Assembly: GCF_009914755.1 (NCBI RefSeq)
Contig: NC_060937.1
Strand: one strand, 5' to 3'
Origin: the human T2T-CHM13v2.0 reference genome, Homo sapiens
Length of the DNA: 64,000 nucleotides
The notes below the pieces were generated by a model. It saw only the letters and a program-made list of their open reading frames with translations, ran no database searches and was not told the origin of the DNA. Shown here piece after piece: positions 13,867 to 15,108 of this stretch (position 1 is its first letter; each line of letters starts with the position of its first letter). Position numbers and translations under genes: made by a program.

Positions 13867-15108
13867 GTGAGTGTCCTCACAGCGCAGAGCTGCGTCTTCC
13901 CTGCAGCTGATGCTTTTCGTCCCGTTTGTGTCTTCCGCAGGCTAAGATGGTAAAGTGTGTGTGATTACTTGTGCCTTCCTTTCTTCAGCCAAAATCATTA
14001 ACGTGAACGTAGGAGTCCAGGTGGGTCTTAGCCTTGAAACACCAGGTGTCTAGCCAGCAGCAAGGAGTGGAGCAGGAAGCTCGGACAGGCGGCTGACTTT
14101 GGTCATGAGGGTGAAGACAGAGGGTCTTGGTTTCTCTCTGACGACTGGAGGTTGAGCCTGGAGCGGCTCTTTCCAGCGCTGCAGTTGAAACTCGGAGAAA
14201 GACTGCCTGCTGCCCGTGGGGTCGCAGCCCTGAGGCTGTGCGTCCCCTGTGGAATGGCTTGCTCAGCCTCCCGGCCTCCTGAGCACATAGCACTCATCGT
14301 CCGTCATCTTTCGGGGACTGTATACACCAGGGGTTCTGGGGCCTTTCCTCAGCAGCGTTCGCGGCCACGGACCCCACATGTCCTCTGCTGACCCCTGTGT
14401 GTCCTCTGTGGCCACCCCATGGCGCTGAATCCTGCCGCCTCCTGCAAGCCGACTTTGGACAAAAGCTGTGTCCGGTCTCACCGTCTGATTTGTCTTGTTC
14501 TCTGTTAATGTAGTGTTTCATTCTTCTCACATTCATACATAAAAGTGATGTCGTGCCTTCTCATGAGCTTTAAACCCAAGTTCTTTAAAATGTGCCTGCT
14601 TTTCCTACCCCACCCACTGGGCACGCTGACCCAAGGCAATGTGATTTCTGCTTTCGCCATGTAGAGATTGCTCTTGTCTGAGATGTCGGTGACCTGCCAG
14701 TTACCAAATCCAGCAAGCATTTTTGTCCTTATTTTATACAACATCTATACAATTTTGGACACCCTGTCCTTGTTGAAGCTCCCATTAATGCCATTTGCCC
14801 TTCTAACTTCCTCATGGAACTCCCAAACATCTCCTAGTAGGCATCCATGTGGTCTACGAGAAGGCAAACGCTGCACAGAAAAGACAGCCTGTGTTCCAGG
14901 AAAGAATGGAGATGATAAAAGTGATCATAGCAGATTATTTAGCATTTGCTCTGTGCAAGGGACTGTTTCCTACTAATGTATTTAATCCCTAGAGCAGCTC
15001 TGTGGCGTGGCCATTGTCACTCCTATTTTATACAAACTAAGGCACATAAGTTAAAATAACTTGCCCTACCTCAGTTGTCTGGCCCATAGTCTAAATGCTT
15101 TTCAAAAA

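What the first reader, a model, noticed from the sequence alone, without database searches (positions are those of the whole stretch)
13867..13955. Strong cryptic acceptor 74 nt into intron 5: 174-aa truncation or 9-nt microexon
Seen: a branch-like CTGAT (~13907), a long pyrimidine tract and TCTTCCGCAG| end at 13940. Splicing exon 5 here gives TG|G CTA AGA TGG TAA = W-L-R-W-stop, a 174-aa product by canonical numbering that keeps the N-terminal adaptor-binding part but has no RBX1/NEDD8 domain. The same bases contain a donor ATG|GTAAAG at 13950, so 13941-13949 could instead be a frame-preserving 9-nt microexon inserting three residues. An AATAAA at 15493-15498 could end the truncated transcript before the VNTR. 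Established: N-terminal cullin fragments can act as dominant negatives.
Basis: partly seen in the sequence, partly recalled or inferred. Interest (0 to 1): 0.7.

Follow-up and report, generated by a model that had tools for sequence, protein, structure and literature searches.

The report
Known CUL4A intronic-polyadenylation short isoform
This stretch is the start of an already published short form of the human CUL4A mRNA that ends inside intron 5; the annotated form uses the next acceptor 48 bases downstream, and the flagged acceptor is likely an unused decoy because its branch point sits too close to exon 5.

Summary
But the truncation idea is already in print. Singh et al. 2018 (PMC5928244) describe a CUL4A intronic-polyadenylation isoform of 1-174 aa, 68% of 3' ends in plasma cells, and propose it as a dominant negative. 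The annotated form uses the acceptor at 13988, which also gives 174 aa, ending C-Q-N-H, not W-L-R-W. The published 3' end maps to about 14566 (CATAAA at 14538), not to the AATAAA at 15493. The 13940 acceptor is likely blocked when paired with exon 5: its last possible branch A lies 44 nt from the donor, and 46 nt abolished splicing in vitro. No W-L-R-W tail appears in 176 retrieved proteins, and no 3-residue insertion in 86 informative relatives, though 90% clustering could hide both. One open point: the paper's qPCR forward primer lies upstream of both acceptors, so it measures unspliced read-through RNA, which encodes 171 aa. All short forms lack helix 170-183, so dominant-negative action is unproven.

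The parts
13793..13866 (+). CUL4A exon 5 (residues 147-170 plus TG of codon 171); donor CTG|GTGAGT. Reading straight on gives TGG TGA, W171-stop (171 aa)
   Evidence: annotation; translation; numbering
13864..13882 (+). Predicted small hairpin over the exon-5 donor (GUGAG pairs with CUCAC at 13876-13880); weak
   Evidence: opening energy ranks 2nd-3rd of 16 donors, but z = -0.27 against shuffles
13907..13911 (+). Branch-like CTGAT; A13910 is the last adenosine before the 13940 AG and lies 44 nt from the exon-5 donor
13912..13940 (+).
   Evidence: 6.1 bits, 23 of 3211 unannotated AGs as high
13941..13949 (+). Candidate 9-nt microexon; no support found
13917..14024 (+). Published CUL4A-IpA qPCR amplicon (108 bp); the forward primer at 13917-13936 lies upstream of both acceptors
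   Evidence: primers in PMC5928244, placed
13961..13988 (+). Annotated acceptor of the terminal exon: candidate branch A at 13964 or 13967 (98-101 nt from the donor), 12-nt pyrimidine run, CAG
   Evidence: RefSeq exon 13989-14566 in the gene table
13989..14566 (+). Annotated alternative terminal exon; adds C-Q-N-H-stop (TAA 13999-14001), 174 aa from the upstream start, 74 aa from the downstream start
   Evidence: NP_001341873.1, isoform 6, ends C-Q-N-H; no donor follows 14566
14529..14566 (+). Intronic poly(A) site: TGTA (reported at 14529), CATAAA at 14538-14543, 3' end near 14566
15493..15498 (+).
3489..3513 (+). Second published CUL4A intronic poly(A) site, in the AT-AC intron 3 (ATTAAA at 3489, end near 3513); used here as the mapping anchor

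Best explanation
The flagged bases are the 5' part of the known CUL4A intron-5 polyadenylation unit, whose annotated 174-aa product uses the acceptor at 13988, while the acceptor at 13940 is likely an unused decoy. Mechanism: in some cells (plasma cells, blood T cells) the transcript is cleaved near 14566, 700 nt into intron 5 (published 3'-seq; placement on the window inferred). The shortened RNA is then either spliced from exon 5 to 13988, giving 174 aa ending C-Q-N-H (annotated), or left unspliced, giving 171 aa ending at W171 (inferred from primer position). The stop lies in the last exon, so the RNA should escape nonsense-mediated decay (established rule, not tested). Splicing exon 5 to 13940 would need a branch A only 44 nt from the donor, under the roughly 50-nt minimum, so the spliceosome likely passes it for 13988 (inferred). 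The short proteins lack the RBX1/NEDD8 half and also helix 170-183, so they may be unstable; dominant-negative action remains a hypothesis.
For: Singh 2018 reports the 1-174 aa isoform, qRT-PCR validation and the dominant-negative hypothesis. Its usage is 0.68 in plasma cells, 0.57 in blood T, 0.26 in blood B, 0.10 in naive B, and 0.06, 0.19 and 0.50 in myeloma groups 1, 2 and 3. The two published peaks end 11,053 nt apart. Of 3133 placements, 16 put a poly(A) hexamer 15-30 nt before both ends; the 12 with a canonical hexamer all fall at 14557-14568, which contains the RefSeq end 14566. Human RefSeq isoform 6, a 17-member cluster and a snub-nosed monkey entry end in C-Q-N-H (3 of 56 short hits); 0 of 176 retrieved proteins hold W-L-R-W. 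There is no adenosine between 13911 and 13938. A 46-nt donor-to-branch distance abolished splicing in vitro, and about 50 nt is the stated minimum (PMC6692369). The 13988 acceptor outscores 13940.
Against: No junction reads could be examined. The protein database is clustered at 90%, so a 174-aa W-L-R-W form could hide among the 17 members of P0122. Singh's text gives 1-174 aa while Supplementary Fig. 7 models 41-171 aa; 171 shared residues fits W-L-R-W or read-through better than C-Q-N-H (170 shared). The 50-nt limit comes from in vitro substrates, and real introns under 73 nt exist (0.25%). The peak placement assumes no insertions or deletions between hg19 and this assembly over 11 kb. The splice-site model rests on only 17 acceptors and 16 donors.
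Confidence: 0.8

Rival explanations
1. The 13940 acceptor is a genuine minor alternative start of the same terminal exon, giving a second 174-aa form ending W-L-R-W and polyadenylated near 14566.
For: It scores above 12 of 17 real acceptors, with a branch motif 30 nt upstream and a 34-nt AG-free zone. It and 13988 are the only 2 of 41 AGs in 13927-14565 that give 174 aa. The paper's '1-174' with '41-171' wording fits it.
Against: 44-nt donor-to-branch distance; absent from the RefSeq table; 0 of 176 proteins carry the tail, and the 74-aa C-Q-N-H cluster has a single member.
Confidence: 0.13
2. 13941-13949 is a regulated 9-nt microexon that inserts three residues at W171/D172 of full-length CUL4A.
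For: It is in frame with no stop. Only one other locus in 43,936 intronic nt has an equally strong acceptor-donor pair 3-27 nt apart. The repeated W lets the helix register be kept, with the extra residues next to the 162-169 loop (inferred).
Against: It needs the same 74-nt upstream intron. The donor is middling and lacks +5 G. The nearest UGC is 29 nt upstream of the AG, farther than I recall for SRRM4-type microexons. 0 of 86 informative relatives and 0 of 9 PDB sequences have a 3-residue insertion. Six papers hold both 'CUL4A' and 'microexon'; the one read in passages does not link them, the other five were seen as listings only. 114 frame-preserving pseudo-microexons fall within the score range of real sites in this gene.
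Confidence: 0.04
3. The 13940 acceptor is used only from the exon-4 donor, skipping exon 5 in a tropomyosin-like mutually exclusive way, which gives a 153-aa terminal form or a frameshifted, decay-prone mRNA (156 aa).
For: The steric limit applies only to the exon-5 donor; products computed; the tropomyosin precedent is cited.
Against: No annotation or paper was found for it, and exon 5 has good splice sites.
Confidence: 0.03

Closest known systems
CUL4A-IpA (Singh et al. 2018, PMC5928244)
   Same: Same gene and intron (512 coding nt retained), same 174-aa length, same dominant-negative hypothesis; its qPCR primers map onto this very stretch.
   Different: The paper passages read do not name the acceptor or the C-terminal residues. 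No protein was shown: the authors' response to reviewers says material was lacking for a western blot.
RefSeq CUL4A short isoform with terminal exon 13989-14566 (NP_001341873.1, isoform 6, 74 aa; 174 aa from the upstream start)
   Same: Exon 5 spliced to an acceptor early in intron 5, stop after four codons.
Engineered dominant-negative CUL4A 1-297 (cited in Singh 2018; the original paper was not read)
   Same: N-terminal fragment without the RBX1/NEDD8 region.
   Different: 1-297 keeps helix 170-183 and several further helices; the 171/174-aa forms stop at the start of that helix.
Sterically blocked splice-site pairs (alpha-tropomyosin mutually exclusive exons; MINX70 in PMC6692369)
   Same: Branch point under about 50 nt from the upstream donor.
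   Different: No evidence that the CUL4A site is used at all; the branch point is predicted, not mapped.

Membership tests
Intronic-polyadenylation isoform, skipped (spliced) terminal exon, via 13988 | Mapped 3' end inside the intron with a poly(A) signal upstream | tested here: met
   Published peak placed at 14557-14568, CATAAA 28 nt before 14566; placement assumes no indel between assemblies
Intronic-polyadenylation isoform, skipped (spliced) terminal exon, via 13988 | New acceptor used with the upstream donor | tested here: met
   RefSeq exon 13989-14566 in the gene table and the RefSeq protein ending C-Q-N-H; annotation, not reads seen here
Intronic-polyadenylation isoform, composite terminal exon (171 aa) | Donor ignored, intron read through to the poly(A) site | tested here: inconclusive
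   The published amplicon needs 13917-13936 retained and tracks 3'-seq, but random-primed total RNA also detects pre-mRNA
Functional cryptic acceptor at 13940 | Consensus tract, YAG and branch motif | tested here: met
Functional cryptic acceptor at 13940 | Donor-to-branch distance of about 50 nt or more | tested here: not met
   44 nt at most against the limit
Functional cryptic acceptor at 13940 | Junction reads or lariats | not testable with these tools
   no RNA-seq access
Neural-type microexon (3-27 nt) | Length a multiple of 3, frame kept | tested here: met
Neural-type microexon (3-27 nt) | Inclusion seen in vertebrate proteins | tested here: inconclusive
   0 of 86 informative relatives, but 90% clustering can hide a +3 isoform
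Neural-type microexon (3-27 nt) | UGC enhancer close to the acceptor (rule recalled, not from a call) | tested here: not met
   nearest UGC 29 nt upstream
Neural-type microexon (3-27 nt) | Conserved flanking intron sequence | not testable with these tools
   no vertebrate genomes are held
Dominant-negative cullin fragment | Lacks the RBX1/NEDD8 region | tested here: met
   stop at 171-174 of 759 aa
Dominant-negative cullin fragment | Stable fold that still binds DDB1 | tested here: inconclusive
   Loses helix 170-183; the truncated model is less confident (pLDDT about 60-75 against about 90 in the folded part), but from a shallower alignment; binding was not tested

The most novel reading that the evidence does not exclude
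The 13940 acceptor is used despite its 44-nt donor-to-branch distance, so that intron 5 yields three short proteins (171 aa W-stop, 174 aa W-L-R-W, 174 aa C-Q-N-H) that differ in keeping the invariant W171, or a 9-nt microexon that inserts three residues at the start of helix 170-183; the choice would tune the stability of a natural CRL4 inhibitor that dominates CUL4A 3' ends in plasma cells.
Probability: 0.15. Interest if true: 0.45.

Novelty: already known. Interest (0 to 1): 0.2.

Why it matters
The isoform itself matters: it takes up to 68% of CUL4A 3' ends in plasma cells, is lost in most myeloma groups, and was proposed to affect lenalidomide response. That is published. What this check adds is modest but useful. 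Three different C-termini are possible. The published qPCR cannot detect either spliced 174-aa mRNA. All forms stop at the start of helix 170-183, unlike the 1-297 fragment used as precedent. Anyone testing the dominant-negative idea should first establish which RNA and which protein are made.

Tried and rejected
The AATAAA at 15493 as the 3' end: rejected; placing the published peak there leaves its intron-3 partner without any of 13 hexamers, and one AATAAA is expected by chance. Microexon in relatives: of the best 120 of 1643 hits, 84 join exon 5 to exon 6 directly, 2 have longer insertions ending just before exon 6, 34 were uninformative (24 without the exon-5 tail, 10 without the exon-6 motif), and none has +3. 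PDB chain 7opc_e is 762 aa, but its 3 extra residues lie before exon 5. A hairpin over the exon-5 donor as the cause of read-through: only weakly supported (rank 2-3 of 16 donors; z -0.27), so not relied on. Supplements of five other poly(A) papers (PMC12626307, PMC8559711, PMC10960005, PMC13187750, PMC13262950) gave no CUL4A rows; one file each of PMC8559711 and PMC10960005 could not be searched. Searches for a paper on the 13940 acceptor or a CUL4A microexon found none in the listings; one search returned nothing and one search listed no test of a 171-174-aa fragment. No protein-complex job was sent: DDB1 is not in this window.

Full report
Observation. The window carries CUL4A exons 3-20; the 18 annotated coding pieces translate as one frame of 671 residues plus stop, and PDB 2HYE fixes exon 5 at residues 147-170 and exon 6 from D172. 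Joining exon 5 to 13941 gives W-L-R-W-stop (174 aa); including only 13941-13949 keeps the frame. With a simple model trained on the gene's 17 U2 acceptors, the 13940 site scores above 12 of 17 real acceptors, and 23 of 3211 unannotated intronic AGs (itself included) score as high. The donor at 13950 scores above 5 of 16 real donors, with 96 of 2517 intronic GTs as high. The AATAAA at 15493 is at chance level.

What is there. The gene table lists an exon 13989-14566 in another transcript. No donor follows 14566, and CATAAA lies 28 nt before it, so it is a terminal exon. Splicing exon 5 to it also gives 174 aa, ending C-Q-N-H. Because the database is clustered at 90% identity, a W-L-R-W form could be hidden in P0122's cluster.

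Literature. Singh et al. 2018 (PMC5928244; I read the abstract, sections 12, 16 and 22, passages on CUL4A and terminal exons, and CUL4A rows or passages of supplementary files 1, 2 and 4; figures are not held) describe a CUL4A intronic-polyadenylation isoform of 1-174 aa, validate it by qRT-PCR and propose dominant-negative action with a bearing on lenalidomide. Usage is 0.68 in plasma cells, 0.57 in blood T cells, 0.26 in blood B cells, 0.10 in naive B cells and 0.06, 0.19 and 0.50 in myeloma groups 1-3. The protein was not shown. IPScan (PMC12626307, one passage) also lists a CUL4A event in breast cancer, without a position.

Where the RNA ends. The paper gives two CUL4A peaks in hg19 whose ends are 11,053 nt apart, one after exon 3 and one after exon 5. 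I slid this pair along the window: of 3133 placements, 16 put one of 13 poly(A) hexamers (list recalled) 15-30 nt before both ends. The 12 that include a canonical hexamer all fall at 14557-14568; the other 4 fall at 14584-14587. So the published end matches the RefSeq end near 14566, provided the two assemblies do not differ in length over these 11 kb.

Why 13940 is likely passed over. Between 13911 and 13938 there is no adenosine, so the latest branch A is 13910, 44 nt from the exon-5 donor. Keiper et al. 2019 (PMC6692369, passages) state a minimum of about 50 nt and report that a 46-nt distance abolished splicing in vitro; 0.25% of human introns are under 73 nt. The 13988 acceptor has candidate branch As at 98 and 101 nt, a 12-nt pyrimidine run and a higher score. 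The shortest annotated intron in the window, 92 nt, has candidate As at 59-70 nt. This is inference from geometry; no reads were seen.

Microexon. Of the best 120 of 1643 relatives of exon 6, 86 show the exon-5 tail before exon 6: 84 join directly, 2 carry longer insertions, none carries three residues; 34 were uninformative. All 9 PDB CUL4 sequences are contiguous there. In favour, only one other locus in 43,936 intronic nt has an equally strong short acceptor-donor pair; against, 343 pairs (114 frame-preserving) fall within the score range of real sites, and the same 74-nt intron would have to be spliced. Clustering limits the protein test.

An open point in the published work. The CUL4A-IpA primers map to 13917-13936 and 14005-14024. 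The forward primer lies upstream of both acceptors, so the assay sees only RNA that has not spliced exon 5 to either: read-through transcripts or pre-mRNA. Read-through ends at W171. As the assay tracked 3'-seq usage, a good part of the short RNA is likely the composite 171-aa form; this is inferred, since total RNA was random-primed. The paper's own numbers differ, 1-174 in the text and 41-171 in Supplementary Fig. 7.

Protein consequence. A model of residues 1-421 of the chimpanzee protein P0003 (31-sequence alignment) shows helices at 58-74, 83-95, 99-122, 128-161 and 170-183; from established knowledge (recalled) these five make the first cullin repeat. All short forms stop at the start of the fifth. 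W171 is an invariant column in that alignment and becomes C in the annotated form. The truncated model is less confident (mean pLDDT 54, pTM 0.41), but its alignment was shallower (16 sequences), so this is not a controlled comparison. The dominant-negative precedent, 1-297, is longer and was seen only as a citation.

Verdict. A good blind call on a real event, with the wrong acceptor and poly(A) site. The 174-aa truncation and its proposed role are already known; the specific 13940 acceptor is unannotated and likely a sterically blocked decoy (confidence 0.8). Residual chance: 0.13 as a minor terminal-exon start, 0.04 as a microexon, 0.03 from the exon-4 donor. Searches that found no paper on this acceptor or on a CUL4A microexon: (listings only, open-licence library). 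Microexon catalogues and junction databases were not checked and could bear on this. Interest 0.2.

Noticed in passing
window 13917-14024: The published CUL4A-IpA qPCR amplicon starts upstream of both acceptors, so it cannot detect either spliced 174-aa mRNA; it reports read-through RNA (171 aa) or pre-mRNA.
   Followed up: partly
window 3395-12322: Intron 3 is an AT-AC minor-spliceosome intron (ATATCCTTT at 3395, TCCTTAG then AC at 12322). It holds its own published poly(A) site about 120 nt in (ATTAAA at 3489, end near 3513; usage 0.06 in plasma cells).
   Followed up: partly
window 9403-9411: A stronger-scoring 9-nt pseudo-microexon (long T tract, ACAG acceptor, GTAGGT donor) lies inside the AT-AC intron; its AG/GT ends do not match the flanking minor-intron sites.
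   Followed up: no
window 13989-14020: A good donor CAG|GTGGGT at 14021 (13 of 2517 intronic GTs score as high) could turn the terminal exon into a 32-nt stop-containing cassette when the poly(A) site is skipped.
   Followed up: no
proteins P0127 and P0124: Predicted short CUL4A isoforms that end after exon 5 also exist for birds (Parus major cluster, 9 members, ending at W) and marsupials (koala/Antechinus cluster, 5 members, another tail), hinting that intron-5 truncation may not be primate-specific; these are gene-model predictions.
   Followed up: no
window 3395-3408; proteins P0013, P0016, P0126: Some primate gene models carry an extra Y-P-F-F after exon 3, read from the minor-intron donor sequence; probably a modelling artefact at the AT-AC intron.
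   Followed up: no
window 16322-16899: A CCA/TAC-rich tandem repeat (periods 24-141 nt) in intron 5, downstream of both poly(A) candidates.
   Followed up: no
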